From: a virus | IMG/VR virus record: IMGVR_UViG_3300030618_000004 | DNA: 64,000 bases | Direction: 5' to 3' (one strand) | Position numbers and translations under genes: made by a program | Notes under the pieces: model-generated | The model's input: the letters and a program-made list of their open reading frames with translations, nothing else | Databases searched by the model: none | Told to the model about the DNA's origin: nothing | Shown: piece by piece, positions 3,021 through 62,074 of the stretch | How positions within the stretch are numbered: position 1 is the stretch's first letter | How the letters are laid out: each line of letters starts with the position of its first letter

Positions 3021-3049
3021 ATTATTACTGATTGATTATTGATAGTCAA
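3021..3049 (-). promoter_or_regulatory. sigma70-type early promoter (TTGACT-N17-AATAAT), conserved 29-mer
   Basis: The reverse complement reads TTGACTATCAATAATCAATCAGTAATAAT. It matches 10358..10386 at 28 of 29 positions. It is enclosed by a 10-bp inverted repeat (3015-3024 and 3058-3067). Confidence 0.55.
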
Positions 3050-7891: not shown

Positions 7892-8528
7892 TATTTTTCG
7901 CCGGATTGAATTTAAAGTTTTTCTTCAGTTTCTCCATCGACTGAACATGATCATATCCACGACAAGGCATCATTGCGACAAGTATTTCTGGGTAGAATTC
8001 AAACTGAATAATAATTGTTGTGCCGATTTCTTCATTTGACCAGAATCGGATAGGAAACGTTTTGGCGCGTTTCATTAAATTTACTTTGTTCAATTTATCC
8101 AAAATATTAGCTGATACATAGCTCGGCATAATAGGTTTCAGTAATTCAAAATCAGGGATGACTTTTCTGAAATCTGGAAACTTAATTTTTTCATTTTCTT
8201 CGACAAAACATTTTCCTGGCTGAATAAATAATTCGTTGCCAGCCACGCCGACAATTTCAAGCCGTTGAGTTTCTTCGTTAATCAAGCATTTATTTTCGTC
8301 ACTTGAACAGTGCTTGAATAAATCCTGATTGACGTAAAATGTCTTTGGCTCAGTTACTATCGCATCTTTATCGATAACAACCATCATGCAATGACCATCA
8401 GTAGCAACTAGTATCGCGCCGCCTTCAGAATATGGTTCGATATGAACGCCTCGTAAGTAATACCGAATATCACCGAAGCCAATGAAGTGTTTCAGTTGTT
8501 TTAGATAACTTGCTTTGAATTGAATCAT
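7884..8528 (-). CDS. DnaN (beta sliding clamp)-like domain protein
   Basis: ILVATDGHCMMVV resembles the VATDGHRLA segment of bacterial beta clamps. At 214 aa it is shorter than a full clamp. Confidence 0.45.
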   Translation of the reverse strand: MIQFKASYLKQLKHFIGFGDIRYYLRGVHIEPYSEGGAILVATDGHCMMVVIDKDAIVTEPKTFYVNQDLFKHCSSDENKCLINEETQRLEIVGVAGNELFIQPGKCFVEENEKIKFPDFRKVIPDFELLKPIMPSYVSANILDKLNKVNLMKRAKTFPIRFWSNEEIGTTIIIQFEFYPEILVAMMPCRGYDHVQSMEKLKKNFKFNPAKNNE

Positions 8529-9463
8529 GACACATTCTCCAGTTGAATTTTAGCTTGTGATGCCTTTGCTGCTTTATCGCGCAATTTTTGTTCGGCATCT
8601 TCCTTTGCATCGTTCGTCGCTTCCAGATTTTGAATCAAGAAAAATAGCGATTTGATCGATACATTGATTGAAATTATTTCATCCGGCTCGTTAAATGTTT
8701 TAAGCGAACCAGCGCGAGCAATAATTTCAGGTTGAATATGCTCAATCAATGAATGTGCATGTTTAACCATTGGGGCAAGTAGTTTTGCTGGTGGCGACCA
8801 AGGCTTAATAGTTTTTGCAGTAACTTTACCACCTGATTTTTTAGCTGCATCGTCAATAATCTTTCCAGCTGATTCTCCATGCTCACGAACCACATTAATT
8901 GCTGCCGTGGCCGATATGGTTTCATTGGTAATGGCATTGTGAACATCATGGTTTGCACCGGCTAGAATCAGCATTTGATCGACATGTTGCCGTGTCTTAT
9001 GTACGCCTTTGGCAATATCGTCAGGCGATACGCCAAATTTAGCTAACCGCGCATAGCCTTTCGCTGTTTGAATGGCCGTAATTGATTCTTTCTCATTCGA
9101 TGTAAAAAGTCTGAATGTGCGCTCAATGTCATTACCAACAAAGTGAACAATTGGAATCCAAACCTCATTATCTTTTTTATCCTGCAATGGTGCGCCAGCA
9201 GCAACGGCGCGGCATAATTGAGTATAGCGACGATGGCCATCAACAATCCATACACCACCTTCATTACGCGGCCTTACTTCCAAATTAGGAAGTATTCCAC
9301 CGGACATAATGTACTGAAATAACGATTCATCATTTTCGCTATTTCCATCATTACGACCTTCAAGATTAAATCCAGGCTCAATATGAATATCCTGCAATTT
9401 GACCTTATTCATATCGGCACGTTTGATAATTTTTTCTTTTTCCATCTGGGTAAAACTTGCCAT
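8525..9463 (-). CDS. ParB N-terminal (ParB/Srx) domain protein
   Basis: WIVDGHRRYTQL motif. It overlaps the downstream clamp-like gene by 4 nt. Confidence 0.7.
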   Translation of the reverse strand: MASFTQMEKEKIIKRADMNKVKLQDIHIEPGFNLEGRNDGNSENDESLFQYIMSGGILPNLEVRPRNEGGVWIVDGHRRYTQLCRAVAAGAPLQDKKDNEVWIPIVHFVGNDIERTFRLFTSNEKESITAIQTAKGYARLAKFGVSPDDIAKGVHKTRQHVDQMLILAGANHDVHNAITNETISATAAINVVREHGESAGKIIDDAAKKSGGKVTAKTIKPWSPPAKLLAPMVKHAHSLIEHIQPEIIARAGSLKTFNEPDEIISINVSIKSLFFLIQNLEATNDAKEDAEQKLRDKAAKASQAKIQLENVS

Positions 9464-9477: not shown

Positions 9478-10326
9478 TTATTTATTAATTTCAGCACTCT
9501 GCTTCATATCAGCTAAAGCATTTTCATTTGAATCAAAAAATCTGCATGGGTTGATTGGTGATCTACTTTCACGATAAATCAACTGTGCGGCCAATGCGGT
9601 TGAGTTAAAGAATTTTTGAAGCGCATATCCTTCTTCGCCAGCCAAATGTACAACCCATCCGGCTCGGCAATGCGTGGTATCACAAACATGCCATTTAGAC
9701 ATATTCAATGCATCTGGCGCAGCAGTGACAGCAGCATAAACAGCCTGATCAATCTGCTCAATCACTGGAATTTTGACCGGAGTTTCTTTTTTGTCGCTGC
9801 AATCGCTGCAACCGATGCAACCGCTGCAATCGCTGCAATCGCTGCAATCGCTGCAACCGCTGCAACCGCTGCAATAGCGGCAACCGCTGCAATCGCTGCA
9901 ATCGCTGCAACCGATGCAACTGCTGCAACCGCTGCAATCGCTGCAACTGCTGCAACCGATGCAACCGCTGCAACCGCTGCAACTGCTGCAACCGATGCAA
10001 CTGCTGCAACCGATGCAACTGCTGCAACCGCTGCAACCGCTGCAACCTCTGCAATAGCGGCAACCGCTGCAATCGCTGCAATCGCTGCAACCGATGCAAC
10101 TGCTGCAACCTCTGCAATAGCGGCAACCGCTGCAATCGCTGCAACTGCTGCAACCGATGCAACTGCTGCAACCGCTGCAATCGCTGCAACCGCTGCAATA
10201 GCGGCAATTATAACAATTCGTATTGTTATTCGCGTCCATCTTGGCAGCTTGTTCGTTAGCTTTTTCCTGTGATTCAAGGCTGAATCCGGTGTTGCCTTTT
10301 GATGTTTTTATTGATTCGAATTTCAT
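9478..10326 (-). CDS. Cys-X-X tandem-repeat protein with a globular C-terminal domain
   Basis: 47 consecutive C-x-x units (CSG/CSD/CSS/CIG/CRY/CRG), followed by a domain with SKWHVCDTTHCRAGW. The start is placed at MKFESIK behind an AGGAGA SD; the track start at 10386 lies inside the promoter. Confidence 0.7.
   Translation of the reverse strand: MKFESIKTSKGNTGFSLESQEKANEQAAKMDANNNTNCYNCRYCSGCSDCSGCSSCIGCSSCSDCSGCRYCRGCSSCIGCSDCSDCSGCRYCRGCSGCSGCSSCIGCSSCIGCSSCSGCSGCIGCSSCSDCSGCSSCIGCSDCSDCSGCRYCSGCSGCSDCSDCSDCSGCIGCSDCSDKKETPVKIPVIEQIDQAVYAAVTAAPDALNMSKWHVCDTTHCRAGWVVHLAGEEGYALQKFFNSTALAAQLIYRESRSPINPCRFFDSNENALADMKQSAEINK
9793..10215. repeat. 9-nt tandem repeat, 47 units (GCAACCGCT and variants on the + strand)
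   Basis: Read directly from the sequence. The repeat has no stop codon in any frame, which produces several spurious long ORFs on both strands. Confidence 0.95.
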
Positions 10327-10357
10327 TTCATTCTCCTGTTTGTTTGTTCGATGGTTC

Positions 10358-10386
10358 ATTATTACTGATTGATTATGGATAGTCAA
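10358..10386 (-). promoter_or_regulatory. sigma70-type promoter, second copy of the conserved 29-mer
   Basis: The reverse complement reads TTGACTATCCATAATCAATCAGTAATAAT, directly upstream of the Cys-repeat gene. Confidence 0.55.
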
Positions 10387-10392
10387 GCAGTT

Positions 10393-11751
10393 TTATATTT
10401 TAGATGAAAGATTTTTCCGTTCAGGCTTATTTTGTGGTTCTTTTGGTTGCCATCCATAGGCTAGGTTTTCAAATCTTGTTTGCTCTCCTATGTAGGAAAG
10501 TCCGACTACTCCTGGCGATCCTTGGCGCTGCTTAACAATTGAAACCTCACAAATCCCCTTATCGAATGTATCAGGGTTATAGACTTCATCACGGTATAGC
10601 ATGATGACGTTTGCCGCGTCCTGTTCGATACTTCCTGATGAAGCTAAGTCAGCCATTATTGGCCGCTTGTCTGATCTCTTTTCACATTCACGATTTAACT
10701 GTGCCAACAAAACAACAGGTACATCTAATTCTTTAGCGAGTTGGATTAATGCGCGGGTGTATTCTCCTATATATTCCCATTGCTTTTCAGATGTCGCGCC
10801 AGTGATAAAACTCAACTGGTCGATAACAATTAAATCTAAACCATTTTGTCGTTTAACTTTGCGTGATTTAGCGCGAATTTGTAGCAAATTCAATCCGGTC
10901 TGATCGTCAATGTAAAAATTTAAATCCTGCGAATCAGAAAATGCCTTTGTCATTCGATTCCAATAATCCTGCTCATTAATTTTTTCAACCTTGGCCGGAT
11001 TGCGCAAAAATGAAAGTGGTACTTTTCCCAATGCTGAAACATTTCTATCTACAACTTGAGTTTCCGACATTTCCATGGATAGAAATAACGAACTTCCCCA
11101 AAATGAGACATTTCTAGCAAAACCAAGTCCTAACGCTGTTTTCCCCATTGCAGGTCTTCCGGCAATAACCGTTAAGGTTCCACGCTCCAGTCCACCACCA
11201 AGTTTGAAATCCAAATCAGCGAACCCTGTTTCAATCGGCTTAATTTTTCCATTCATTCGATCTTCAACTACATTTGCATAATTCACCAAAAGATCAGAAA
11301 GTTTTTTTGGTTCCTTTTCTACTCTATTGCGTGAAAGTAATTCAAGTTTAGATGCCACTAAATCGACCAATACGGCGCTTTCCTCGTGCCTATCTGCAAT
11401 CTCCATGCCTTCATTACAAATCGCAGCCAGAGAGCGTTTGATTGATTTATCAATGACAATTGCAGCATATTTGATAATCCCAGAACTCGATGGAGTGTTT
11501 TGTTGGATTGAATTAAGATAGGACATTGCATCTTGAACAGATTCTTTTAGCGCAATGCCAACAGTAACCACGTCAGCACGTTGGCCGGAGATAATTTGTT
11601 TGCATATCTCTGAAAATATTGTTCTATGTTCCTGACGATAAAAATGCTCAATGCTTAGTTTTTCTGATATCCGGTCTAATGCGTTATTGTCTATTAGTAA
11701 AGCACCTAAAATACTTTGCTCCGCTTCGATTGATGCGTTTTTAATGATCAT
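10393..11751 (-). CDS. dnaB: replicative DNA helicase (DnaB family)
   Basis: N-terminal EAEQSILGALLIDN, Walker A AGRPAMGKTALG, and a 452-aa size typical of DnaB. Confidence 0.9.
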   Translation of the reverse strand: MIIKNASIEAEQSILGALLIDNNALDRISEKLSIEHFYRQEHRTIFSEICKQIISGQRADVVTVGIALKESVQDAMSYLNSIQQNTPSSSGIIKYAAIVIDKSIKRSLAAICNEGMEIADRHEESAVLVDLVASKLELLSRNRVEKEPKKLSDLLVNYANVVEDRMNGKIKPIETGFADLDFKLGGGLERGTLTVIAGRPAMGKTALGLGFARNVSFWGSSLFLSMEMSETQVVDRNVSALGKVPLSFLRNPAKVEKINEQDYWNRMTKAFSDSQDLNFYIDDQTGLNLLQIRAKSRKVKRQNGLDLIVIDQLSFITGATSEKQWEYIGEYTRALIQLAKELDVPVVLLAQLNRECEKRSDKRPIMADLASSGSIEQDAANVIMLYRDEVYNPDTFDKGICEVSIVKQRQGSPGVVGLSYIGEQTRFENLAYGWQPKEPQNKPERKNLSSKI

Positions 11752-12455
11752 TGTGAATCCTTGTTATGGAAAATTTCTGCTTGCTTGCCTTCATTTGTTA
11801 AAAAATATTCGCCTTCTTGTGTAATCGCCCAAAGTTTCAAATAATTGTTTTCGATGTAATTTTTAAAAGCTCTGCGCCAGTCTTTATATTTTTTTGTTTT
11901 TTCGGAATCGTTTATTTTTCTACAAAATTCATGCCAAGCAAGAACTACAAAATCAAAAGGTATTCCAGCAGATTCTTGATATTCCCAAAGTGGCCGATAG
12001 TTTTTAATAGGTCTTTCGTCTTTTAGCACGCATTCATCAAGAAATTCAGATAATGAAATTTCTTCTTTTTTTCTTGAGGACTTCTTTTCAGGTTCTATTC
12101 TAGGTTTAACTTCTAGGTTAGTAGTCAACGGTTGACCTACCCCTGGGTCAACCGTTGACCTACCCCCAGCCAATGGTTGACCTACCCCCCCAATATTCAA
12201 TAGGTATTGATTTGGCAAATTAACACCATCTTGGAATTTTGGTATTATTTGCAAATAACCTTTTTCACTTAACCATAAAATATGGTTTTTAAGACTTGAA
12301 ACACTCATTGAGCATTCTTCAGCGAGTCTTTTATGAGATGGATTGCATTGACCTGTGTGCTTATTGCAGTAATTTGAAAGCATTAATAAAACAAGTTTTT
12401 GCCCTGCATTATCCGTTTTTATATCTACCGCCCATGACATGGCTTGAAAGCTCAT
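11748..12455 (-). CDS. replication initiator (lambda O-like role) with an N-terminal winged-helix domain
   Basis: HTH-like N-terminus (KRLAEECSMSVSSLKNHILWLSEKGYL). It lies immediately upstream of DnaB and carries iterons inside its coding sequence. Confidence 0.7.
   Translation of the reverse strand: MSFQAMSWAVDIKTDNAGQKLVLLMLSNYCNKHTGQCNPSHKRLAEECSMSVSSLKNHILWLSEKGYLQIIPKFQDGVNLPNQYLLNIGGVGQPLAGGRSTVDPGVGQPLTTNLEVKPRIEPEKKSSRKKEEISLSEFLDECVLKDERPIKNYRPLWEYQESAGIPFDFVVLAWHEFCRKINDSEKTKKYKDWRRAFKNYIENNYLKLWAITQEGEYFLTNEGKQAEIFHNKDSQ
12125..12190. promoter_or_regulatory. candidate replication origin: three GGTTGACCTACCCC iterons
   Basis: tcaacggttgacctacccc, tcaaccgttgacctaccccc and ccaatggttgacctaccccccc lie about 22-23 nt apart. 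Each contains a GTCAAC-N-GTTGAC palindrome, and AT-rich DNA lies alongside. Confidence 0.6.
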
Positions 12456-14492: not shown

Positions 14493-15110
14493 ATGAAAAT
14501 TACAAAAGAATTATTGAAAGAATGGGACGCATGCAGCAATGGCTTTAAATGGTTTTTGCAAAAGTTCCCTCAAGGTGGCGATGTGCATGAAGTTGGTTCA
14601 ACTCTGCGTGTAGACAAAAGATACGACGATGCGCGTTGGCTGACATCTCACGTGTTTGAGCAGTTCATCAAAACACCTAGTGATATCGCTTCATACGTTG
14701 AGGGCGATGTCGCAGCAGTGATAAAGGAAACTGATATCGCCGTGACGCTGAAAGCCGTAGAGGGTTCGCCTATTTTTGCATCCGGCGATTACAGCAAGGC
14801 AGCGTCATCCGGCGATTACAGCAAGGCAGCGTCATCCGGCGATTACAGCACTGCAGCGTCATCCGGCAATTCCAGCACTGCAGCGTCATCCGGCTATTCC
14901 AGCAAGGCAGAAGCAATTGGAGAAAAAACTGTATCAATGGTTGCAGGATGTAATGGTCGCGCAAAAGCTGGCTTGAAAGGTGCATTTGCATTAGCTTGGC
15001 ATGATGAAAATTCGGGATCAATGAAAATTTGCGTTGGAGAAGTTGGATTTAATGGAATAAAAGCGGATGTGTTTTATTGTGTTAAAAATGGCGTTTTGGT
15101 AGAATTTTGA
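14493..15110 (+). CDS. tandem-repeat protein (SGDYSKAAS nonapeptide units)
   Basis: GGAGAA SD. The N-terminal domain contains EWDACSNGFKWF, followed by five 9-aa units and a C-terminal domain ending GIKADVFYCVKNGVLVEF. Confidence 0.7.
   Translation: MKITKELLKEWDACSNGFKWFLQKFPQGGDVHEVGSTLRVDKRYDDARWLTSHVFEQFIKTPSDIASYVEGDVAAVIKETDIAVTLKAVEGSPIFASGDYSKAASSGDYSKAASSGDYSTAASSGNSSTAASSGYSSKAEAIGEKTVSMVAGCNGRAKAGLKGAFALAWHDENSGSMKICVGEVGFNGIKADVFYCVKNGVLVEF
14781..14915. repeat. 27-nt tandem repeat, 5 units
   Basis: tccggcgattacagcaaggcagcgtca occurs twice exactly, followed by three diverged units. Confidence 0.9.
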
Positions 15111-48651: not shown

Positions 48652-49323
48652 TTAGCTAACTCCGGATGGTTGTACAGGCTTAATTTTGATTGAATTTAAG
48701 AGCTTCTTGACTTCCTCTTTACCGTTACCGTTTTTGTTTGAATTCGTTAGCAAAGGATGCTCAGTAACGCCGGAAATTCGCAAAATGTTTTCTGCGCACT
48801 CGGGCAGAATCTTGACCGCGTGATCAATGCTGATTAAGCCGTCCTTAACCGCATCACACAAAACAGATTCACGTCCTCCGCGATCAGAACCAGAGGAAAG
48901 AAAATAAACCGGCTTACGACCTTCCAACTTCGCGCGTTCGATCAATCGATCGTACGCGTCGCGAAATGCCATCCGTGCCGCGTTCGATTCACCTTGCTCG
49001 AGCAACGGTGTAGCGTAGGACATGGCTTGGGAAATTTCATTCGTCATCAGAGCGCTTTCACTTTCCGATTGCGGCATTTTCGCCCAAGCTTCGTCGGCAC
49101 CCAACCATGTACCCGGGCATTGAATCTCGCAACCGTGAATGATTTCCGACAGCTGCGGCTTAAACTTGCTTGTGGCAATGAAATGCTGGGCCGACTTCAT
49201 GACGCTTCCCTTCGGATAACTGGACAGCTTGTAGAACCACATAGCCAGTCTGGATCCATCGAAAGCTGGCATGTCGTACTCTGCTGTCAGCAGCGCTATC
49301 GCTTGTGAAATTTCATTTTTCAT
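48652..49323 (-). CDS. putative helicase loader (G39P-like N-terminal domain)
   Basis: SAQHFIATSKFKPQLSEIIHG resembles the G39P loader signature. It lies directly downstream of the initiator gene. Confidence 0.55.
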   Translation of the reverse strand: MKNEISQAIALLTAEYDMPAFDGSRLAMWFYKLSSYPKGSVMKSAQHFIATSKFKPQLSEIIHGCEIQCPGTWLGADEAWAKMPQSESESALMTNEISQAMSYATPLLEQGESNAARMAFRDAYDRLIERAKLEGRKPVYFLSSGSDRGGRESVLCDAVKDGLISIDHAVKILPECAENILRISGVTEHPLLTNSNKNGNGKEEVKKLLNSIKIKPVQPSGVS

Positions 49324-50177
49324 GAATGCTTCTCCAAAAATAAATTCATGTTTTCCAACGTCTTACGCCTGTTTTCACTCATGTCAGAATTCAAAATGAC
49401 GCCGCGTTCGGCCATTTTTATAAAACTATCAAGTTTTACCGCCGTACGACAAATTAATTCAATGTCATCAAAAACGGTGTTTCTGTCATTTTTACCTTGA
49501 CTGAATGGATCGATAAAACACCCATCGATGGCTTTGCAAATTTCTCCCACTGTGTAACCGTCAAGCAAACGGGCTTTGATCGCCCTTAATCTTTTTGAAT
49601 CCAGTTTGGCATTTGGATGATTTAATTTTAATTGCCAATATTCAAAAATTTCTTCGACTTCCAAATTTGTGCTTGGAGTTATTTTTTTTTGTGGTTCAAC
49701 TGGACTGTGCTTTTCTCCTTCCCTTCCCTTCCCTTCCCATTCCCTTCCCTTCCCTTCCCCTTGGAAAAGATCGGCACGCGTAGTTGACGCGTGCTTCACG
49801 CGTGCTTCACGCGTTGGAACCCATATCTGGCTTAGTTCTTCGTGAGGTGATGGTATTTTAGATGCGCTTTCTTTATTATTTATCACTTGATGTTTTGACC
49901 ACGAAGGAATGAACCCGTAAATCTTGTTTTCTGACGTGTATTTAGAAATAAATCCACGCGTGAACAACGCGTCAAGCACGCGTGAAAAATCTAATTCATC
50001 GTGAGGCAGGCAGTCTAATTTTAGTGTTTTTGGGAGCCATTCGAATCGGCCTTCACGGTCACACGCCGTGAAAAGTCCTGCAAATGCAACTCTCATAGGT
50101 AATCCAGTTTCCTTCTCAAGGTCATAAAGACCCTCGTGTCTGAAAAAATCTGGTTTGACGGTTCTAATGCGGCCCAT
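49320..50177 (-). CDS. replication initiator-like protein carrying internal iterons
   Basis: N-terminal IRTVKPDFFRHEGLYDL...FTACDREGRFEW...IPSWSKHQVINNKE, and C-terminal FEYWQLKLNHPNAKLDSKRLRAIKARL. ACGCGT iterons lie inside the gene. Confidence 0.65.
   Translation of the reverse strand: MGRIRTVKPDFFRHEGLYDLEKETGLPMRVAFAGLFTACDREGRFEWLPKTLKLDCLPHDELDFSRVLDALFTRGFISKYTSENKIYGFIPSWSKHQVINNKESASKIPSPHEELSQIWVPTREARVKHASTTRADLFQGEGKGREWEGKGREGEKHSPVEPQKKITPSTNLEVEEIFEYWQLKLNHPNAKLDSKRLRAIKARLLDGYTVGEICKAIDGCFIDPFSQGKNDRNTVFDDIELICRTAVKLDSFIKMAERGVILNSDMSENRRKTLENMNLFLEKHS
49719..49759. repeat. (TTCCC)4-A-(TTCCC)4 pentanucleotide tract
   Basis: Read directly from the sequence. On the coding strand it is (GGGAA)n, encoding GKGREWEGKGREGE. 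Confidence 0.9.
49776..49983. promoter_or_regulatory. candidate replication origin: seven ACGCGT sites in two 11-bp-phased clusters
   Basis: ACGCGT occurs at 49776, 49787, 49798 and 49809, and again at 49956, 49967 and 49978. Spacing within each cluster is exactly 11 bp. Confidence 0.6.
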
Positions 50178-51169: not shown

Positions 51170-51348
51170 TTCAACGAATATCCCACATAAAAATTAACAT
51201 GGTCCCTGATGGTACTTTCACCGACGCCATATTTACGGGCCAACGAAGCATAACCAAATCCGCGCTTGCCAGGTTTGTATTCCTGGCGTATTGCGCGAAT
51301 CTGATCGAGTGTTAATGATTTACGCCTCGTCATCGAATAAATCTCCAT
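51166..51348 (-). CDS. small HTH protein
   Basis: GYASLARKYGVGESTIRDHV. Confidence 0.5.
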   Translation of the reverse strand: MEIYSMTRRKSLTLDQIRAIRQEYKPGKRGFGYASLARKYGVGESTIRDHVNFYVGYSLK

Positions 51349-53575
51349 TCAATGATTTTGCTTGATGCATGTTTTTTACAGCTTGTTCGTAATAACTTGG
51401 CTTTAATTCGCTGCCAATGAATCTACGTCCCATTTTTACTGCCGTAAATCCTTCGCTACCAACTCCAGTAAAAGGACTGAATACCAAATCATCCGGTGCT
51501 GTCCATAAATCCATCGCACGTTCAATTACATCTAACTGTAACGGGCATATATGCTTAACATCATCTTCCTCTCTCGCATCACGGAAATTGAGAGTTCTGG
51601 ATTGGTCAATATCAAACCATACGGGCGAGGCATAACGCTGCCACATAGTCACTGGAAATTCTTCTGCGGTATGGCTGATAAACTTCTCATTCTGTCCTGG
51701 CTTGCGAAAAATAACCAGATAGTCAGCTAATCCCTGCCGAGACATTGAGCTGTCTTTTTTAATCGTTTTGTGTAGAAGCCCAAGTGCTTTAGTGCGTTGC
51801 ATTGCAACTACTGGGTCTTTCCATATACACACTTCTGAATGATAGATAAATCCTGCTTTTTGATGTGCGCGGATAATGTCGCCACGGAAATCACGGATAC
51901 CTATAAATCCATCATTGGCCTTTGATGTGGTCAGGTTCATACAATGCACGGCGACAAGTCGTCCAGCTTTCATCATCCTGAAATTTTGCTCAATCAAAAA
52001 CTGATAATGAATCTGAAACGCTTCCGATGATTTATTATTTCCCATATCACGGTCAGAATTTGAATAAGTGAACAGTGACTCAAAAGGCGGAGAGTAGATT
52101 GTAAAATCAACAGATTCATCCGGTATTTCCTTGGATAAATCAATGCAATCGGAATTATGGATTGTCCACTTATCTGTTTCTGTTACTTGACGCACATACT
52201 CGGTCTTTTCGTTGGATAATCCGAATATTTCTTTTTTCATTGATTCAGACATATATTTAACCATTTCTGCGCCCATCAGCGCGTTTTGTTCTTCTTTGCG
52301 TTTAATATTAGCAACGACTGCGCCTTCCGATTCTGCGCTGATCACATGCACATTCACTTCGTGCGTTTGTCCAAATCGGTAAAACCGTCGAATAGCCTGG
52401 TAGTATTGCTCCCATGAATCGGACAATCCAACAAATGCAGTATTGAAACAATGCTGGAAATTCATACCCGCACCAAGAATCTTTGGCTTGCTGACCAAAA
52501 CACGAATAGACCCATCAATAAATCCATCGACAGATTGCTCTTTATGCTCAATTGAATCACTGCCAGATACATCAACTGCGCCATCAATTAACTTGCATAG
52601 CTTTTCAGCTTCTTCGTTACGATGACACCATATAACAAATTGCTCTGAGCTAGAATTAACTACATCAGCACATTTTGCGACACGATCATCAATTGATTCT
52701 TTTCTAGCTTGATTTCTTTCCATTAAGCCTGAAGCAATGTCAGCAAACAATCCATCAGTTGATTTTGATTCGACCACGTGATCAAACATATTCAACTTTG
52801 GCAAAACATATGCAGAGCCATCGAATCCAAGATCAGCAGGGCTACGAATCACACAAGACCAAGTAGATAACCATTCCCAGAACTTAGCCTTACCATGCCC
52901 CTTTAAAACCCATGTCCCAGTATCGCCGGCATCATTGATAAAGAACATAGCTAACATTTCAGTCATCGTCATAATTCCTAAGAATTCGGCCTGATTGCCT
53001 AATTCCATAAAATCATTTGGTGAAGGTGTAGCTGTGCAACTCAATCGATATGGCACTTGTTGACATGCCGAAATAATCGCATTTCGTGTTTTGCCATCAC
53101 GGTTTTTAATGATTGAAGATTCATCTAAAACAATACCGTGATAATCATCGAGATTAAATTTATCCAGCATTTCATAGTTAGTAATGTTGATTCCTGGCTT
53201 CGCATGTTCCTGATCGCGGCAAAAGTTAATATCAATGCCAAACTTTTGACCCTCTCGCACGGTCTGCTGTGCGACGCATAACGGCGCAACAATCAGAACA
53301 TCACCATCGGTATATTTGACTACCTGATATGCCCATGAAGTTTGCATCAATGTTTTGCCAAGACCAGTATCAGCAAATATCGCCGCACGACCACGTTTTA
53401 AAGCCCATTTAACTATGACGCGTTGAAAATCAAATAAATTCGAATTCAACTCAGTTAAATCAACATCAAATCCAGAAATAATCGGTGTTATTTTCTTCTG
53501 TTCTAAAAATTCGGCGTAATCCATAATTTCCCTAGTCGGCAAAGTGCTTGTCATGTATCGATTCCATCGTTTCAA
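51320..53575 (-). CDS. SNF2-family helicase fused to a beta-class N6A/N4C DNA methyltransferase
   Basis: Helicase motifs ADTGLGKT and VLDESS. Methyltransferase motif IV IYSPPF precedes motif I FSPFTGVGSEG. The start may instead be MDYAEF at 53524, which avoids overlap with the upstream gene. Confidence 0.8.
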   Translation of the reverse strand: MKRWNRYMTSTLPTREIMDYAEFLEQKKITPIISGFDVDLTELNSNLFDFQRVIVKWALKRGRAAIFADTGLGKTLMQTSWAYQVVKYTDGDVLIVAPLCVAQQTVREGQKFGIDINFCRDQEHAKPGINITNYEMLDKFNLDDYHGIVLDESSIIKNRDGKTRNAIISACQQVPYRLSCTATPSPNDFMELGNQAEFLGIMTMTEMLAMFFINDAGDTGTWVLKGHGKAKFWEWLSTWSCVIRSPADLGFDGSAYVLPKLNMFDHVVESKSTDGLFADIASGLMERNQARKESIDDRVAKCADVVNSSSEQFVIWCHRNEEAEKLCKLIDGAVDVSGSDSIEHKEQSVDGFIDGSIRVLVSKPKILGAGMNFQHCFNTAFVGLSDSWEQYYQAIRRFYRFGQTHEVNVHVISAESEGAVVANIKRKEEQNALMGAEMVKYMSESMKKEIFGLSNEKTEYVRQVTETDKWTIHNSDCIDLSKEIPDESVDFTIYSPPFESLFTYSNSDRDMGNNKSSEAFQIHYQFLIEQNFRMMKAGRLVAVHCMNLTTSKANDGFIGIRDFRGDIIRAHQKAGFIYHSEVCIWKDPVVAMQRTKALGLLHKTIKKDSSMSRQGLADYLVIFRKPGQNEKFISHTAEEFPVTMWQRYASPVWFDIDQSRTLNFRDAREEDDVKHICPLQLDVIERAMDLWTAPDDLVFSPFTGVGSEGFTAVKMGRRFIGSELKPSYYEQAVKNMHQAKSLNGDLFDDEA

Positions 53576-55501: not shown

Positions 55502-56959
55502 ATGTTGAAAAAAATTAACTCATTAACGCCAGATCAAGAATTAAAAATGGCTGAGTTTCGGGATAAATGGCTCGGGATTGGTTTTTCTTGCCAGCCTGCA
55601 GACCGAGTGACAGCAGTTATTGGTGTAAATGAAGCATATCAATCTGCAGGCATGGAACCACCAAAATATATTATTTGGCTGGACAGCCCACTTTCTGGAG
55701 TATATGGCGCTGCAATTTTGGCTAACTCTCAAGTCGGGGCTCAGGTCGGGGCTCAGGTCTGGGATCAGGTCAGGGCTCAGGTCGGGGCTCAGGTCAGGGC
55801 TCAGGTCGGGGCTCAGGTCTGGGCTCAAGTCGGGGCTCAGGTCGGGGCTCAGGTCAGGGCTCAGGTCGGGGATCAGGTCGGGGCTCAGGTCAGGGCTCAG
55901 GTCGGGGATCAGGTCTGGGATCAAGTCGGGGCTCAGGTCGGGGATCAGGTCGGGGCTCAGGTCAGGGCTCAGGTCGGGGATCAGGTCGGGGATCAGGTCT
56001 GGGATCAAGTCGGGGATCAGGTCTGGGCTCAGGTCAGGGATCAAGTCGGGGATCAGGTCTGGGCTCAGGTCAGGGATCAGGTCTGGGATCAAGTCGGGGC
56101 TCAAGTCAGGGCTCAAGTCGGGGCTCAAGTCGGGGCTCAGGTCAGGGCTCAAGTCGGGGCTCAGGTCAGGGCTCAGGTCGGGGCTCAGGTCTGGGCTCAA
56201 GTCGGGGCTCAGGTCGGGGATCAGGTCAGGGCTCAGGTCGGGGCTCAGGTCTGGGATCAGGTCTACAAAGCTGGCTATGGCCAGCACGACGCAAATTGGT
56301 TGGCGTTTTATGACTTTTTCAATTTTTTAGGGATCGTTGAAACATCTAAACTTTCTGGAATGAATAAAATAGCTCAATCATCCGGGTGGTTTTGGCCTTT
56401 TAAAAATTTATGTATTTTGTCGGAACGACCCATTCACCTTTTCCGAGACAGTTCTAACCAGCTTCATTCAGAAAATAAAGCGGCGCTCGAATACAAGGAC
56501 GGATTCAAATTGTTCCGGTGGCATGGTGTCACGGTTCCTCAATGGCTAATTGAAAACCCAGAATTGGTCACGGTCGAAAAAATCGAATCAGAACAAAATT
56601 CAGAGGTTCGCCGGTGCATGATGGAGCGTTATGGATATGAGCGCTATATACGTGACTGCAATGCTGTTGTTGTAGATTCTTGTGATATCAATCATCCTAT
56701 CGTTGGTCTGCGTGATGCAAAGCTTTTGGTTAAAAAAGTTGTCGACGACGAAGACATTGTTTTTGTCGATATGTTGAATTCTACTCCGGAACCAGACGGT
56801 AGCGTTAATCGGTATTTGATACGTGTTGATCCAACTGCTTATGACGGCGACGCGGCACTTTATTGTCACGCTGCTGCGGCATCTACATGGCGCGACGAAT
56901 TGAATGGTGAATTTACTTTCAAAAACTGGAAAGACTACACTCCAGAATTTGAATCTTAA
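55502..56959 (+). CDS. tetrapeptide (Q-V-x-x) tandem-repeat protein with a conserved C-terminal domain
   Basis: 44 QV(G/R/W)(A/D) units. The C-terminal domain contains [15 protein letters not shown]...[20 protein letters not shown]...[15 protein letters not shown], which I recall as DUF6745-like (unverified). Confidence 0.7.
55730..56269. repeat. 12-nt tandem repeat, 44 units plus one degenerate unit
   Basis: The unit is CAGGTCGGGGCT. Substitutions are confined to three positions (G/A/T, C/A and a silent G/A). All frames are stop-free, which produces spurious ORFs. Confidence 0.95.
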
Positions 56960-57284
56960 CCGGTAGAACCGGCACTTCCCTGGGTGGAAAAGTCCTGAGT
57001 CTATGCTTAGCCAGGAAAACGTAGTTGGAAGTCGTTACCAGCACCAAGATTAGAACGGTCTCGGCAATATTCTGGTCATGACAGAAGCAAGCATTCGGTT
57101 CCAGACACATTACCCAGATCCTGGCAATGCAACCTTCACAGGTAAGACTGTTCTAATGTTGGTGTCGCATGACTGGAACCGGCTGGGTAGCATCCTCGCC
57201 CGAAAATCCGTGACGAAGTTTGGAGCACGCCCCATCGTACATAGTGAAGGTAGCCCGGCACCAACATTAATTTACAGGATAAAA
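56960..57284 (+). ncRNA. ORF-poor structured leader or ncRNA with mutually exclusive helices
   Basis: 57041-57061 pairs with 57145-57165 over 21 bp, with one G-G mismatch and three G-U pairs. The same 57154-57167 segment pairs with 57256-57269 over 14 bp, just upstream of the AGGA SD and the ATG at 57285. Confidence 0.45.
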
Positions 57285-58091
57285 ATGTCACAAAAAATAA
57301 TATCAGTTAGAGCTTCATCATTCGGAACGCTGTTTGATTGTGCGTACCGTTTTGAGGGTGAGCAGTTGATGAAGATGAACAAGCCTAGCAGCTTGCGCGC
57401 GTGGATGGGAACGTCTATTCATGCCAGTACGGCGGCGTTTGACTTGGCGGCATTAGATGGCAAACCAATTAGCGCCAATGAAGCTGCTGATGTTCTAGTT
57501 GAAAAACTTCATAATCCAGATTGCGAAGTGAATTACGAAGACGACAATATCAATCTTCGTGAAGCTGAGAAAATATCTCTGACATTGCATTCTCGGTATT
57601 GCGCAGAAATTGCTCCAAAGATGGTTTATCAGTCGATTGAAATGCCTTTATCGCCATTGGATATCGATTGTGGTGATAATCTGATTATTCGACTTACCGG
57701 CACCATGGATCGTGCCAGAGTCGTTAAATCGGTAGATGGCAAGGTCATTGCGGATTTAAAGACCGGAAGCCGATTAATCACTGAAGACAAGGTAAGTACC
57801 AAAGGCCGCGCAGCGCAGTTGGGAACTTACCAGATTTTGAGTGAGCACACGGACGGAGAAGAAACTTACGGAGCACAGATCATCGCGTTGCAGACCACAT
57901 CGGCAACGAAGGTGGGCGTCAGCAAAGTGTTTGATGCCAAGAAAGTGATGTTAGGCGATGAAAATCAGGAAGGTTTGATTCATATGGCAGCCAAGATGTT
58001 TAAAATCGGGTTATTCCCGCCAAATCCACAAAGCGTTTTATGCGACAAGAAGTATTGCAGTCGCTGGGGAGTTTGCACCTATCATGAATAA
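57285..58091 (+). CDS. Cas4/RecB-like PD-(D/E)XK exonuclease (start moved to MSQKIISV)
   Basis: RASSFGTLFDCAYRF, GTMDRARVV...IADLKTG and the C-terminal Cys cluster CDKKYCSRWGVC. Confidence 0.7.
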   Translation: MSQKIISVRASSFGTLFDCAYRFEGEQLMKMNKPSSLRAWMGTSIHASTAAFDLAALDGKPISANEAADVLVEKLHNPDCEVNYEDDNINLREAEKISLTLHSRYCAEIAPKMVYQSIEMPLSPLDIDCGDNLIIRLTGTMDRARVVKSVDGKVIADLKTGSRLITEDKVSTKGRAAQLGTYQILSEHTDGEETYGAQIIALQTTSATKVGVSKVFDAKKVMLGDENQEGLIHMAAKMFKIGLFPPNPQSVLCDKKYCSRWGVCTYHE

Positions 58092-60316: not shown

Positions 60317-62074
60317 ATGAAGATCACACGCATCCAGATCGATGGAATTTTAGGTATTTCATCGGTTGATGTTCGAATCAAAACGCCTATCGCTCTTTTC
60401 TGCGGCGAAAACTATTCAGGAAAGAGTTCAATCCGAGACAACGTGGCACTGGCAATTGCACAGCAACATTCGCGCAACATTACACTCAAAAAAAATTATC
60501 AAGAATTCGTCAATGACCAGGTGAAATCTGGCGGCGCGGTTGTTACGATTAATGATGATCCTGATCAAAGCTACGCATTCAACATGCCGGCCGGTGAATT
60601 CAACGGACCAGAAGTTTCTGCATCAATGCGCGTTGCTCTGGACGGACAGCTGTTCTCCAGCATGAAACCCGATGAGCGCCGTACTTTTTTGTTTGATTTA
60701 ACTAAGTGCCGCCCAAATGCCGAAAACGTCAAAAAACGCATGCTTGCGAAAGAATGCGATTCAGAAAAAATAGAGGAAGTATTGCCAATGCTGCGCACTG
60801 GTTTTCCTTCTTCCTGCGAATTCGCCAAGAAACGAGCTACCGAGTGTAAAGGAAGTTGGAAACAAATTACTGGCGCTACTTACGGATCAAAAGTTGGTGA
60901 ATCATGGAAGGCTGAAAAACCGGACAAGCCAGAATTCAATTCTGATGCCATGAAACTTGAACTGGTTGAACTCGACAAGGACATAGCCAAAAATAATCAG
61001 GACATTGGCGTTATCAACAGTGAGAAAAAAACTCACGATGAAAACACCAAAAAACGTGCTGCGTTGAAAGCATCGGTTGATAAAGTTCCTGACATTGAAA
61101 AACAGATTCCTTTAGCTGAAAAAGAACTCGCAGAGTTTGAGCCAAAAGTTATCGATCTGCGTAACCGTGCAAAGTGTGTCGCGCGTGTCGGACTCATTCA
61201 CGACATGGCGAAATTTATCATTGAATGCGAGGGAGATACCGAAGCTGATGCATTGATCAAACGCTACGAGTCAGAATATGGAAAACCTGACGGCGGCAAG
61301 GTCGATATGGAAGCACAAGCATCGTTGCCTGAATACGAAAAAGCACTTCAGGTCTTGGTGCACCGAGTCGCCAATTTGAAGCGCGATCTTGATTCATGCA
61401 AACAGGCTAAAGGTCAGTACGACGCATTGAAAATTGATGAGTCAATGGACTACGATTCTGCTTTGTCAAAGGTCCAGTCGTTCATGAAAGAAGACCAAGC
61501 CAGACGCGATCAGTTGGTTAAATCGATATCGGCGATTGAATCTGTTATCACCAAACGCGCCGAAGCGGATCAAAAAACTAAAGATGCTCAGTCACATCAC
61601 AATGATGTGGTTGCGTGGACAGTAGTAGCAGACGCATTATCACCTGACGGAATTCCGTCAGAAATGTTGATTGAGTCCTTAAAACCAGTCAACACAGCGT
61701 TAGAACAAGCTGCACTAGACACGGATTGGAAAAAGGTAGTAATCAACAAGGAAATGGAAATAACGGCTTCAGGACGCCCATATCATCTTTTGAGCGAATC
61801 CGAACAATGGCGCACCGATGCCATGATTGCTCAAGTCGTTGCCGAAATATCTGGTCTGAAAATCATGCTACTGGACCGCATGGATGTGCTGAACCTTCAA
61901 GGTCGAAAAGAAGTCCTTGAATGGATGGATATTTTGGCATCAGAAGGCATCATCGACACGTCGCTGTTATTTGCAACTTTGAAGGCCATGCCAGCGTCGT
62001 TACCTGAAACCATCACCTCGTTTTGGGTTAAAAAAGGAGAAGTAATGGGGCAAGAAAAGCGAGCTTCAGCATGA
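60317..62074 (+). CDS. Rad50/SbcC-like ABC ATPase with a long coiled coil
   Basis: Walker A GENYSGKSS near the N-terminus, a central coiled-coil region of about 350 aa, and Walker B/D-loop IMLLDRMDVL near the C-terminus. Confidence 0.7.
   Translation: MKITRIQIDGILGISSVDVRIKTPIALFCGENYSGKSSIRDNVALAIAQQHSRNITLKKNYQEFVNDQVKSGGAVVTINDDPDQSYAFNMPAGEFNGPEVSASMRVALDGQLFSSMKPDERRTFLFDLTKCRPNAENVKKRMLAKECDSEKIEEVLPMLRTGFPSSCEFAKKRATECKGSWKQITGATYGSKVGESWKAEKPDKPEFNSDAMKLELVELDKDIAKNNQDIGVINSEKKTHDENTKKRAALKASVDKVPDIEKQIPLAEKELAEFEPKVIDLRNRAKCVARVGLIHDMAKFIIECEGDTEADALIKRYESEYGKPDGGKVDMEAQASLPEYEKALQVLVHRVANLKRDLDSCKQAKGQYDALKIDESMDYDSALSKVQSFMKEDQARRDQLVKSISAIESVITKRAEADQKTKDAQSHHNDVVAWTVVADALSPDGIPSEMLIESLKPVNTALEQAALDTDWKKVVINKEMEITASGRPYHLLSESEQWRTDAMIAQVVAEISGLKIMLLDRMDVLNLQGRKEVLEWMDILASEGIIDTSLLFATLKAMPASLPETITSFWVKKGEVMGQEKRASA

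What the first reader, a model, noticed from the sequence alone, without database searches (positions are those of the whole stretch)
9478..10326. Early protein with 47 consecutive Cys-X-X triplets (one third cysteine over 141 residues)
The 9-nt DNA repeat at 9793-10215 encodes an uninterrupted C-x-x array. It uses only six unit types: CSG, CSD, CSS, CIG, CRY and CRG. The array sits between a short N-terminal segment and a C-terminal domain of about 100 aa that contains SKWHVCDTTHCRAGW.

A strict period-3 cysteine lattice is neither a pentapeptide repeat nor a typical metallothionein pattern. It could instead form a metal-thiolate or disulfide-laddered rod.

The unit length is a multiple of 3, so slipped-strand gain or loss of units changes the protein length without breaking the frame. 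The gene has its own copy of the conserved 29-mer promoter.
Basis: seen in the sequence. Interest (0 to 1): 0.7.

Follow-up and report, generated by a model that had tools for sequence, protein, structure and literature searches.

The report
Phage protein with 47 Cys-x-x repeats
This is a real phage gene whose protein has a cysteine at every third residue for 141 residues. It belongs to a large, undescribed family of phage proteins built as cap, Cys-Ser-X array and tail, whose array changes length between strains, can be replaced by a pentapeptide repeat in relatives, and is often mis-called by gene finders.

Summary
The gene at 9478-10326 (-) encodes 282 aa with 47 uninterrupted Cys-x-x units at 9793-10215.

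The Cys frame is the selected one. Relatives keep Cys-Ser-X but use different serine codons (AGC, AGT, TCC, TCG/TCA), and their other frames carry stops.

The protein is not unique. It belongs to a large family with no Pfam or NCBIfam model and only "unknown function" PHROGs. Members have a ~37-aa cap, a (Cys-Ser-[D/G/R/Y/N])n array and one of several unrelated tails. Read directly from DNA, arrays reach 56 units.

Two of the tails (A, as here, and C) are fused in other phages to classic pentapeptide repeats. The two repeat types therefore look like interchangeable modules.

Near-identical phage strains from peat metagenomes carry 47, 46, 27 or 20 units, all in frame. Each length goes with its own SNP pattern in the flanks.

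Family members lie in phage early, replication or recombination regions and have no conserved partner gene and no RiPP maturation enzymes nearby.

AlphaFold folds the cap and tail confidently but not the array. Foldseek finds no structural relative.

My best reading, which is inferred, is a cytoplasmic rod of four Cys-x-x units per turn with a thiolate (probably metal) core. It would do the job of a pentapeptide helix and present the tail to a host target. Function is unknown.

The parts
10358..10386 (-). Sigma-70-like promoter 29-mer, TTGACT-17 nt-AATAAT, in the dnaB-to-gene spacer
   Evidence: It matches 10 of 12 consensus positions. A second copy with one mismatch lies at 3021-3049 (-), and none is expected by chance. 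Promoter activity was not tested.
10333..10337 (-). Shine-Dalgarno sequence AGGAG, 6 nt before the ATG
9478..10326 (-). Coding sequence, 282 aa plus stop: cap, 47 C-x-x units, linker and tail A
   Evidence: The same architecture is seen in homologs.
10216..10326 (-). Head or cap, residues 1-37 (MKFESIKTSKGNTGFSLESQEKANEQAAKMDANNNTN)
   Evidence: About 66% identical by eye to the heads of P0127 and P0130, which carry a different tail. With an array-rich alignment AlphaFold gives pLDDT 92-95: short strands plus helix 20-32.
9793..10215 (-). Array of 47 Cys-x-x units, residues 38-178
   Evidence: Protein-level selection is shown. pLDDT is 33-48 for most of the array.
10049..10110 (-). First copy of the 62-nt exact internal repeat (units SSCIGCSDCSDCSGCRYC)
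   Evidence: The 27-unit allele is exactly the 180-nt deletion between the two copies.
9869..9930 (-). Second copy of the 62-nt internal repeat, 180 nt (20 units) downstream in the gene
9490..9771 (-). Tail A domain, residues 186-279, all-alpha
   Evidence: 424 homologs found. It matches PHROG 31265 at E 4.6e-19. pLDDT is 92-98 over most of the domain. There is no Pfam or PDB relative. It is 44-48% identical to the tail of Ralstonia phage pentapeptide-repeat proteins.
9667..9690 (-). Conserved motif H-x-C-x3-H-C (HVCDTTHC, residues 213-220) inside WHxCxTTHCRAGW
   Evidence: C215, H219, C220, R221 and G223 are invariant. W212 and H213 are at least 90% conserved across 112 sequences. Its role, metal site or catalytic dyad, is inferred only.
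9762..10277 (-). Spurious 171-aa Ala-rich ORF in the +1 frame of the array; public gene callers chose it in place of the true gene
   Evidence: The gene tables show a 171-aa gene plus a 95-aa gene at this position.

Best explanation
Shown here. The gene is real and lies in the replication module of a phage. Its product belongs to a large, uncharacterised, modular family with three parts:
- a small folded N-terminal cap;
- a tandem array (Cys-Ser-[Asp/Gly/Arg/Tyr/Asn])n, kept by selection on the protein and gaining or losing whole 9-nt units by slippage or recombination;
- one of several unrelated C-terminal tails.
Here the tail is tail A, an all-alpha domain with an invariant H-x-C-x3-H-C motif.

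Inferred.
- The array is a structural repeat module, not a disordered linker or a peptide precursor.
- It most likely forms a narrow four-sided solenoid with four Cys-x-x units (12 residues) per turn, as in the Tenebrio antifreeze beta-helix, where positions 2, 5, 8 and 11 point inward.
- All four inward positions would then be cysteine. In the reducing cytoplasm the core would be a column of metal-thiolate centres (most simply one Zn per four Cys) rather than disulfides.
- Such a rod would be a smaller counterpart of the four-sided pentapeptide-repeat helix that replaces it on the same tails in other phages.
- By analogy with pentapeptide-repeat proteins, it would act early in infection as an elongated scaffold or nucleic-acid-like surface that presents the tail to a host or phage target (host takeover or counter-defence).
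- Its length would be tunable and not critical.

Confidence by part: about 0.9 for gene and family membership, about 0.5 for 'structural module equivalent to a pentapeptide helix', about 0.3 for the 12-residue metal-core solenoid, and about 0.25 for a counter-defence or DNA-mimic role.
For: Frame and selection.
- The Cys frame joins cap to tail without a stop.
- Arrays in relatives use AGC, AGT, TCC or TCG/TCA for Ser, yet all encode Cys-Ser-X.
- Other frames carry up to 16 stops in some members.

Family size and architecture.
- 463 hits and 1277 clusters at 50% identity match the cap plus array.
- Heads fall into four variants. The three main tail types are unrelated by hhalign after trimming.
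- Position 2 is Ser in about 70% of units, and position 3 is D, G, R, Y or N.
- Read from DNA, in-frame arrays lie upstream of tail A in 78 of 78 analysed loci among the best-ranked viral loci and in 27 of 59 genome loci, with up to 56 units.

Interchange with pentapeptide repeats.
- Tail A is fused to Pfam-verified pentapeptide repeats in a Ralstonia phage protein and to pentapeptide-like repeats (pattern match) in 18 of 59 genome loci.
- Tail C is fused to pentapeptide repeats in Acinetobacter and Rheinheimera phages.
- PHROG 31567 combines a pentapeptide-like region with tail C.

Cap.
- AlphaFold gives the head pLDDT 92-95, falling to about 78 over the first few units of the array.
- Head-plus-array modules recur several times within long proteins.

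Fold analogy.
- The only PDB sequence that resembles the array in Cys spacing is the Tenebrio antifreeze protein 1EZG (E 0.004).
- Unit identity autocorrelates most strongly at lag 4 (z 5.3).

Context.
- Members sit in early, replication or recombination regions (ERF, YqaJ, DnaB, CI/Cro, methylases) with no conserved neighbour.
- One relative fuses the modules to an S-adenosylmethionine lyase domain, which from my own knowledge is a phage anti-restriction enzyme type.

Length polymorphism.
- Alleles of 47, 46, 27 and 20 units each go with a distinct SNP pattern in the flanks.
Against: - No structure prediction supports any fold for the array: pLDDT is 33-48 for most of it in both runs.
- The 1EZG match is weak and driven by composition.
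- The lag-4 signal has no harmonics at lags 8 or 12 and may only reflect duplication history.
- Unit counts show no preference for multiples of 4 or 2, although a solenoid can end on any side.
- Side-chain charge of the Cys arrays is near neutral: 58% of arrays are net acidic, against 95% of the pentapeptide arrays on the same tail. DNA mimicry would therefore need the charge of the metal-thiolate centres.
- Metal binding, cellular location, time of expression and target are all untested.
- Sharing a tail does not prove that the two repeat types have the same function.
Confidence: 0.4

Rival explanations
1. Metal or thiol sponge. The array would be a metallothionein-like, largely unstructured polythiol. 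It would sequester Zn, Cu or Fe, or buffer oxidants and electrophiles, in the infected cell. Capacity would scale with unit number, and the cap and tail would only stabilise or localise it.
For: - One third of the array is Cys.
- AlphaFold gives it no fold, which from my own knowledge is also usual for metal-free metallothioneins.
- Length varies freely between strains with no parity constraint, as expected if only capacity matters.
- CP220 gp032 has a cap and array but no tail.
Against: - No metallothionein model matches.
- The spacing is strictly C-x-x with no CxC or CC, and Tyr and Arg are common.
- Ser at position 2 and turn-forming D, G or N at position 3 are strongly conserved, which suggests a defined backbone geometry.
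- A dedicated folded cap precedes the array.
- Replacement by pentapeptide repeats on the same tails is hard to explain for a sponge.
Confidence: 0.2
2. Redox-switched or cross-linking disordered linker. The array would be intrinsically disordered when reduced and would form intra- or intermolecular disulfides under oxidative conditions, or late in infection. That would switch or aggregate the tail domain.
For: pLDDT is low in the array. The beetle antifreeze protein shows that Cys-laddered helices stabilised by disulfides exist. Array length is tolerant of change.
Against: - The protein lacks a hydrophobic N-terminus by inspection, so it is probably cytoplasmic, and the cytoplasm is reducing.
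- Positions 2 and 3 are strongly conserved and a cap is present.
- The array can be replaced by a rigid pentapeptide helix.
Confidence: 0.1
3. Precursor of a thiazole/oxazole-modified peptide (RiPP). It would resemble the heterocycloanthracins, whose Cys-Xaa-Xaa repeats are turned into heterocycles by a cyclodehydratase and a dehydrogenase. Those enzymes might be encoded by the host.
For: Heterocycloanthracin precursors are the only described proteins with strain-variable Cys-Xaa-Xaa repeats, and their maturation genes can lie far away (PMC2674419). Cys-Ser pairs are classic substrates for heterocycle formation.
Against: - NCBIfam, which should include the heterocycloanthracin precursor model TIGR03601, gives no match.
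- The array is internal and is followed by a conserved 100-aa folded domain, not placed at the C-terminus of a 50-90 aa peptide.
- No YcaO-type cyclodehydratase, SagB-type dehydrogenase or radical-SAM gene appears in the 20 window ORFs scanned, in five other family loci, or in the clustering of flanking ORFs around about 140 tail-A loci.
- Hosts span many phyla.
Confidence: 0.05
4. Not a real protein feature. The array would be an assembly artefact, a non-coding DNA repeat, or read in another frame (the Ala-rich ORF that public gene callers chose).
For: Public gene calls use the Ala frame. Three contigs (L007, L014, L016) end inside the array. The 27-unit allele is exactly what a collapse across the 62-nt repeat would give.
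Against: - The identical 47-unit array appears in five other assemblies from two pipelines.
- The shorter alleles go with distinct SNP patterns in the flanks.
- The Cys frame alone is open and conserved across relatives that use different codons.
- The cap and tail are in frame with it.
Confidence: 0.03

Closest known systems
Heterocycloanthracin/sonorensin bacteriocin precursors (Haft 2009, PMC2674419; model TIGR03601)
   Same: Tandem Cys-Xaa-Xaa units whose number differs between strains. The sequence is low-complexity and gene callers often miss it.
   Different: Those are 50-90 aa peptides of Bacillus with a leader, a C-terminal Gly-rich array of about 13 Cys, and dedicated cyclodehydratase, dehydrogenase and scaffold genes. 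Here the array is internal, has 47 units rich in Ser, lies between two folded domains, is carried by a phage, and has no maturation genes or matching NCBIfam model.
Tenebrio molitor-type antifreeze beta-helix (PDB 1EZG; 12-residue repeat TCTxSxNCxxAx)
   Same: A Cys-rich tandem repeat in which every third residue (2, 5, 8, 11) points into a very narrow core. A hydroxyl residue follows Cys and Asn precedes it. Isoforms differ in repeat number. It is the only PDB sequence that resembles the array in Cys spacing (E 0.004; PMC8038014).
   Different: The antifreeze protein is secreted, has Cys at only two of the four inward positions, forms one disulfide per coil, and carries a TCT ice-binding face. 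The phage array has Cys at all four positions, no apparent signal peptide and no 12-residue consensus. The fold is not predicted by AlphaFold.
Pentapeptide-repeat proteins (Pfam PF00805; Qnr, MfpA, AlbG, McbG) and phage pentapeptide-plus-tail fusions (Ralstonia phage RsoP1IDN_4, Acinetobacter phage Acba_11 ACBA11_092, Rheinheimera phage Barba gp043)
   Same: The same C-terminal tails (A or C) follow the repeat, which is of similar length (roughly 60-170 residues). The genes sit in the same early phage regions. From my own knowledge, both can be drawn as four-sided helices, with 4 x 5 or 4 x 3 residues per turn.
   Different: The period is 3, not 5. The core residue is Cys, not Leu or Phe. No Pfam pentapeptide model matches. 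The N-terminal caps differ. The function of the phage pentapeptide-plus-tail proteins is itself unknown.
Metallothioneins
   Same: About one third Cys over a long stretch and no predicted fold without metal.
   Different: The spacing is strictly C-x-x with no CxC or CC. The array is flanked by folded domains, has aromatic and Arg residues, and matches no metallothionein model. Metal binding is untested.
PHROG 15341 and PHROG 31265 (both 'unknown function'), e.g. Campylobacter phage CP220 gp032 (YP_009169166.1)
   Same: True homologs. PHROG 15341 covers the cap plus Cys array (E 3.8e-18) and PHROG 31265 covers tail A (E 4.6e-19). CP220 gp032 has a cap and 27 units.
   Different: These are only sequence clusters with no described function or structure. 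The window protein combines a head usually seen with tail C with tail A instead, and has one of the longest arrays.

Membership tests
Cap-(Cys-Ser-X)n-tail phage family (PHROG 15341 plus PHROG 31265; no curated name) | A conserved ~35-aa head directly before the array | tested here: met
   The head is about 66% identical by eye to those of P0127 and P0130. AlphaFold pLDDT is 92-95.
Cap-(Cys-Ser-X)n-tail phage family (PHROG 15341 plus PHROG 31265; no curated name) | An uninterrupted C-x-x array with Ser-rich position 2 and D/G/R/Y/N at position 3 | tested here: met
   47 units, 33 of them with Ser at position 2. The array matches PHROG 15341 at E 3.8e-18.
Cap-(Cys-Ser-X)n-tail phage family (PHROG 15341 plus PHROG 31265; no curated name) | Tail A domain with WHxCxTTHCRAGW | tested here: met
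   424 homologs at 60-74% identity. The invariant residues are present. It matches PHROG 31265 at E 4.6e-19.
Heterocycloanthracin / thiazole-oxazole peptide precursor | A leader peptide matching the family model (TIGR03601) | tested here: not met
   NCBIfam, which should include TIGR03601, gives no hit at E up to 1.
Heterocycloanthracin / thiazole-oxazole peptide precursor | A small precursor (50-90 aa) whose Cys-rich core is C-terminal | tested here: not met
   The protein has 282 aa, and the array is followed by a conserved folded 100-aa domain.
Heterocycloanthracin / thiazole-oxazole peptide precursor | Cyclodehydratase, dehydrogenase and scaffold genes in the same genome | tested here: not met
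   None appears among 20 window ORFs, in the gene tables, or in the clustering of flanking ORFs around about 140 tail-A loci. Host-encoded enzymes cannot be excluded.
Heterocycloanthracin / thiazole-oxazole peptide precursor | A strain-variable number of Cys-Xaa-Xaa units | tested here: met
   Alleles of 47, 46, 27 and 20 units.
Pentapeptide repeat family (PF00805) | Tandem A(D/N)LXX pentapeptides recognised by the Pfam models | tested here: not met
   No Pfam hit at E up to 1 and the period is 3. The Ralstonia homolog of the tail does hit PF00805 at 4e-41.
Metallothionein | CxC, CC or CxxC motif pattern and a match to a metallothionein family model | tested here: not met
   No Pfam or NCBIfam hit. 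Only C-x-x-C spacing is present.
Metallothionein | Metal-thiolate clusters | not testable with these tools
   This needs ICP-MS or spectroscopy on purified protein.
Tenebrio-type antifreeze beta-helix | A 12-residue TCTxSxNCxxAx consensus with a Thr-Cys-Thr face | tested here: not met
   There is no 12-residue consensus and no TCT. The phmmer E-value of 0.004 comes from Cys spacing alone.
Tenebrio-type antifreeze beta-helix | Inward-pointing residues every third position in a 12-residue coil | tested here: inconclusive
   The sequence pattern is compatible. The lag-4 unit autocorrelation has z 5.3 but no harmonics. AlphaFold does not fold the array.
Tenebrio-type antifreeze beta-helix | A secreted protein with one disulfide per coil | tested here: not met
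   The N-terminus MKFESIKTSKGNTGFS is hydrophilic by inspection, so there is no apparent signal peptide. Disulfide state is not testable here.
DnaJ-type CXXCXGXG zinc finger / zinc ribbon | CXXCXGXG or paired CxxC knuckles recognised by Pfam | tested here: not met
   No Pfam hit at E up to 1.

The most novel reading that the evidence does not exclude
The Cys-Ser-X array would be a protein fold not yet described. It would be a capped solenoid of 12 residues per turn whose core is a continuous column of metal-thiolate centres, one metal per four cysteines. Phages of many bacterial phyla would use it, interchangeably with the pentapeptide-repeat helix, as a length-tunable and probably polyanionic rod for host takeover or counter-defence. 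The family would have stayed unnoticed partly because gene finders prefer the Ala-rich frame and split the gene.
Probability: 0.22. Interest if true: 0.85.

Novelty: categorically new. Interest (0 to 1): 0.68.

Why it matters
- A strict cysteine-every-third-residue array of 20-56 units, with its own cap, would be a new class of protein repeat. It matches no curated family model and no solved structure.
- The family is common: at least 1277 clusters at 50% identity. It occurs in phages and prophages of Proteobacteria, Acidobacteriota, Planctomycetota, Bacteroidota, Cyanobacteria and in Campylobacter phages.
- It sits among early genes, where host-takeover and counter-defence functions are usually found.
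- Its replacement by pentapeptide repeats on the same tails gives a direct experimental handle on both protein types, neither of which has a known role in phages.
- The locus varies in length within a natural phage population, which makes it a natural experiment.
- Long arrays are split or called in the wrong frame by standard gene finders. Protein databases therefore under-represent them: the longest array among the protein-database hits examined had 37 units, against 56 read from DNA.
- A metal-core rod would also interest protein designers.

Tried and rejected
Searches that found nothing:
- Pfam, NCBIfam and PADLOC scans of the protein and of relatives with other tails gave no hit.
- A profile search of tail A against PDB sequences gave only a chance hit at E 1.6.
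- Foldseek of both AlphaFold models against PDB and BFVD gave nothing below E 3. Helical N-terminal domains of DnaB recur at probability 0.01-0.04 with rmsd 11-14 A. I treat this as noise despite the neighbouring dnaB gene.
- A megablast of the first 25 kb against GenBank phages gave no match.
- Literature searches for CSGCSG-type strings, CXX repeats, and phage pentapeptide or DNA-mimic proteins found only Haft 2009 as relevant.

False leads:
- The 'cysteine-rich repeat / phage attP' papers (PMC7379824 and related) concern eukaryotic defensin-like repeats.
- The Acinetobacter phage Loki and Asgard virus papers concern DnaJ-like or HNH zinc sites.

Analyses that needed correction or stayed open:
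- My first hhalign run suggested that the tails are related. That was caused by leftover Cys units; after trimming there is no similarity.
- Clustering the ORFs that flank about 140 tail-A loci found no conserved partner gene. The commonest neighbours, recombinase or exonuclease genes, occur in at most 8 loci.
- The test for a 4-unit structural period was inconclusive.
- The test for parity or multiple-of-4 constraints on unit number was negative.
- The exact protein is absent from the public protein collection, because gene callers split it.
Full report
**1. The observation**

The minus strand of 9478-10326 is an open frame of 282 codons. It starts at an ATG (10326) that follows an AGGAG by six bases and ends at a TAA. 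Residues 38-178 are 47 consecutive Cys-x-x triplets, encoded by exactly 9793-10215. Tandem Repeats Finder independently reports a 9-nt period with 44.9 copies and score 549.

There are seven unit types: CSG 13, CSD 12, CSS 8, CIG 7, CRY 4, CRG 2 and CYN 1. Codon usage is almost uniform, with TGC in 46 of 47 Cys codons and AGC in all 33 Ser codons. The array is therefore young at the DNA level.

A sigma-70-like 29-mer (TTGACT-17-AATAAT) lies in the 66-nt spacer after dnaB, at 10358-10386. Its only other copy in the window is at 3021-3049. The flanking genes are a DnaB helicase (10393-11751) and a ParB-like protein (8525-9463). Further along the same strand lie an HTH_36 replication-initiator-like gene, NinG, a PAPS-reductase/DUF3440 gene with a ParB_N gene, and an ERF recombinase. 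This is a phage replication and recombination module. 'Early' is therefore a reasonable inference, but it was not tested.

**2. Is the array real?**

The exact protein is not in the public protein collection, although both neighbours are. The reason is gene calling. On the contigs that carry this phage, the callers annotated two genes in its place. One is a 171-aa gene in the Ala-rich +1 frame, which is window ORF 9762-10277. The other is a 95-aa fragment of the C-terminal domain.

I extracted the interval between dnaB and parB from 14 loci on 12 distinct contigs. The first 111 and last 315 bases of the gene are 100% identical in all of them, while the array has 47, 46, 27 or 20 units, always in frame.
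- The 47-unit array is identical in five other assemblies made by two pipelines. Contigs from four of them are 100% identical to the window over 3.7-9.4 kb, and the fifth (L004) differs only by a 27-nt indel.
- The 27-unit allele is exactly a 180-nt deletion between two copies of a 62-nt internal repeat. The 20-unit allele is a 243-nt deletion across 44 nt of homology.
- Collapse during assembly could produce such deletions. However, the three 27-unit contigs and the 20-unit contig each differ from the window by about 0.2-0.8% SNPs in the flanks, and the 46-unit allele has its own unit substitutions. Each length thus goes with a distinct strain.
- The longest internal repeat (62 nt) is below the final assembly k-mer of 141.

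I conclude that the array is real and varies in length within a natural population. Read-level confirmation is still needed.

**3. Which frame is selected?**

It is not. In six relatives read from DNA, the array always encodes Cys at position 1. Five of the six have mainly Ser at position 2; the degenerate CP220 array has only two. The serine codon differs between arrays: AGC, AGT, TCC, or TCG/TCA. The other frames carry up to 16 stops. AGY and TCN serine codons cannot interconvert by a single step while remaining serine. The Cys-Ser-X pattern is therefore maintained by selection on the protein, while each array is homogenised at the DNA level (6-13 distinct 9-mers per array). The older, degenerate array of Campylobacter phage CP220 has 23 distinct 9-mers in 27 units.

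**4. What family is it?**

The C-terminal domain, which I call tail A, has 424 homologs at 60-74% identity. None has a Pfam domain or an informative name. Of the 120 best, 22 carry a short head plus 3-13 Cys-x-x units.

Searching with the head plus array gave 463 hits. An exhaustive HMMER scan of 1.84 billion representatives gave 1277 clusters at E up to 0.001. All show the same plan:
- A head of about 35 aa in four sequence variants.
- An array with Ser at position 2 in about 70% of units and D, G, R, Y or N at position 3.
- One of several tails. Tail A carries WHxCxTTHCRAGW. Tail B carries IGSR..TT.YW..VCGCFKGTLEEFE. Tail C carries NGL.WPVSTDGK.IQIGCQ.HS. Others occur, and some members have no tail.

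After trimming leftover Cys units, the three main tails show no profile-profile similarity. The window protein combines the head that usually goes with tail C (about 66% identity by eye) with tail A, so domains have been shuffled.

Read directly from DNA, and so free of gene-calling errors, in-frame arrays precede tail A in all 78 analysed loci among the best-ranked IMG/VR loci and in 27 of 59 analysed loci in reference genomes. Totals reach 56, 53, 49, 48, 48, 46 and 46 units. The 47 units here are therefore at the long end but not unique. The protein-database hits examined top out at 37 units, which suggests long arrays are lost to mis-calling.

Hosts of the genome loci include Alpha- and Gammaproteobacteria, Acidobacteriota, Planctomycetota, Bacteroidota and Cyanobacteria. 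A cultured example is Campylobacter phage CP220 gp032, with a head and 27 units but no tail. Curated libraries know none of this. Pfam, NCBIfam and PADLOC give no hit, and PHROGs 15341 and 31265 are labelled 'unknown function'. The literature I could search has no description either.

**5. The link to pentapeptide repeats**

Tail A is 44-48% identical to the C-terminus of proteins of Ralstonia Autographiviridae phages. The N-terminal part of one such protein is a classic pentapeptide repeat (PF00805, E 4e-41). In reference genomes, 18 of 59 tail-A loci carry pentapeptide-like repeats (by pattern match) instead of a Cys array. Tail C likewise follows pentapeptide repeats in Acinetobacter phage Acba_11, Rheinheimera phage Barba and others, and PHROG 31567 joins the two.

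Two unrelated tails each pair with either repeat type, and the repeat lengths are similar. This is the strongest functional clue I found. The Cys array behaves as a structural module equivalent to a pentapeptide beta-helix, not as a linker or a peptide precursor.

**6. Structure**

With a tail-rich alignment, AlphaFold2 gives tail A pLDDT 92-97 over most of its length (six helices) and the array 40-48. With an array-rich alignment, the head rises to pLDDT 92-95 (short strands plus helix 20-32), the first few Cys units reach about 78, and the interior of the array stays at 33-45. Foldseek finds nothing below E 3 in PDB or BFVD, and a profile search of PDB sequences finds nothing for the tail.

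The only PDB sequence that resembles the array in Cys spacing is the Tenebrio molitor antifreeze protein 1EZG (E 0.004). That match is weak and compositional, but it is instructive. [quoted passage not shown] The inward residues are C2, S5, C8 and A11, and there is a C2-C8 disulfide (PMC8038014). This is a period-3 inward pattern. A Cys-x-x array threaded on it would place four cysteines in the core of every turn. It would be a four-sided helix of 4 x 3 residues, next to the 4 x 5 residues of the pentapeptide helix.

The protein lacks a hydrophobic N-terminus by inspection, so it is probably cytoplasmic, and a metal-thiolate core is more plausible than disulfides. This is inference. Support from the sequences is thin. 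Unit identity autocorrelates best at lag 4 (z 5.3), but there are no harmonics. Unit numbers show no preference for multiples of 4.

**7. Context and function**

Family members in a Granulicella prophage and in four metagenomic phage contigs sit among small early genes, next to CI/Cro-like repressors, ERF/YqaJ or RecT recombination genes, DnaB and methylases. Clustering all flanking ORFs around about 140 tail-A loci found no conserved partner. No cyclodehydratase, dehydrogenase or radical-SAM gene occurs in the window ORFs scanned or in those loci. This, together with the internal position of the array and the missing NCBIfam match, argues against the heterocycloanthracin-type RiPP reading (Haft 2009, PMC2674419), which is otherwise the closest described Cys-Xaa-Xaa repeat.

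One long relative (P0247) fuses several head-plus-array modules to an S-adenosylmethionine lyase domain (PF23780, E 4.7e-11). From my own knowledge, that enzyme type serves phages against restriction. This is a single hint towards counter-defence.

Side-chain charge of the Cys arrays is close to neutral, whereas the pentapeptide arrays on the same tail are acidic. A DNA-mimic role would therefore depend on the negative charge of the metal-thiolate centres.

**8. Verdict**

The metal or disulfide rod idea remains a hypothesis, now with a concrete geometric model and a clear set of experiments.

The feature belongs to a widespread family that has not been described. I rate it as far from any known kind, with two caveats. 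The sequences already sit in databases as hypothetical proteins, and no function has been shown.

Noticed in passing
window 55728-56263 (ORF 55502-56959, +): A second very long coding tandem repeat. A 12-nt unit repeated 44.7 times encodes about 45 tetrapeptides [A/D]-Q-V-[G/R/W], directly before a DUF6745 domain (PF20530, E 8e-48).
   Followed up: partly
window 14779-14910 (ORF 14493-15110, +): A 27-nt repeat, 4.9 copies, encodes the nonapeptide SGDYSKAAS five times in a YdhT_N-like protein. It also varies in length: contig L004 has a 196-aa product instead of 205 aa, and a 27-nt gap relative to the window.
   Followed up: partly
window 12123-12189, inside gene 11748-12455 (-): Three 22-nt iteron-like repeats (GTCAACGGTTGACCTACCCC), each with the palindrome CAACGGTTG. 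They lie inside the HTH_36 replication-initiator-like gene, which looks like a lambda-style origin within the initiator gene.
   Followed up: no
window 49717-49814, inside ORF 49320-50177 (-): (CCTTC) repeated 8 times, interrupted once, inside a coding frame (GEGKGREWEGKGREGEK). It is followed by 3.6 copies of the 11-nt CACGCGTGCTT. A 5-nt unit in a coding region would shift the frame on slippage, so this may be a phase-variable tract or an origin-like repeat.
   Followed up: no
loci L003-L018, gene tables (window 9478-10326): Public gene calls replace the Cys-array gene with an Ala-frame 171-aa ORF plus a 95-aa tail fragment. Only the 20-unit allele is called in the true frame (212 aa, from an upstream ATG that overlaps the -10 box). 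Many 'stand-alone' tail A proteins of about 95-110 aa in databases may be similar truncations.
   Followed up: partly
P0247 (836 aa): A long relative joins an S-adenosylmethionine lyase domain (PF23780) to several head-plus-Cys-array modules. Other multi-module proteins of 350-1400 aa (P0246, P0248, P0250, P0251) repeat the head-plus-array module many times.
   Followed up: partly
P0059 (146 aa): It carries VGIAAIAAIAAS, the +1 frame of a CSD/CSG-type array, in frame with tail A. This is either a frameshifted natural variant or a sequencing error.
   Followed up: no
window 3021-3049 (-): The second copy of the 29-mer promoter-like sequence (one mismatch) lies just upstream of ORF 1834-2991 (385 aa, no Pfam hit).
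   Followed up: no
window 51320-53575 (-): A 751-aa fusion of an SNF2/DEAD helicase with an N6/N4 DNA methylase. Downstream lie a PD-(D/E)XK nuclease (57078-58091) and an AAA_15 ATPase (60317-62074). This may be a defence or counter-defence cluster, or a separate element at the right end of the window.
   Followed up: no
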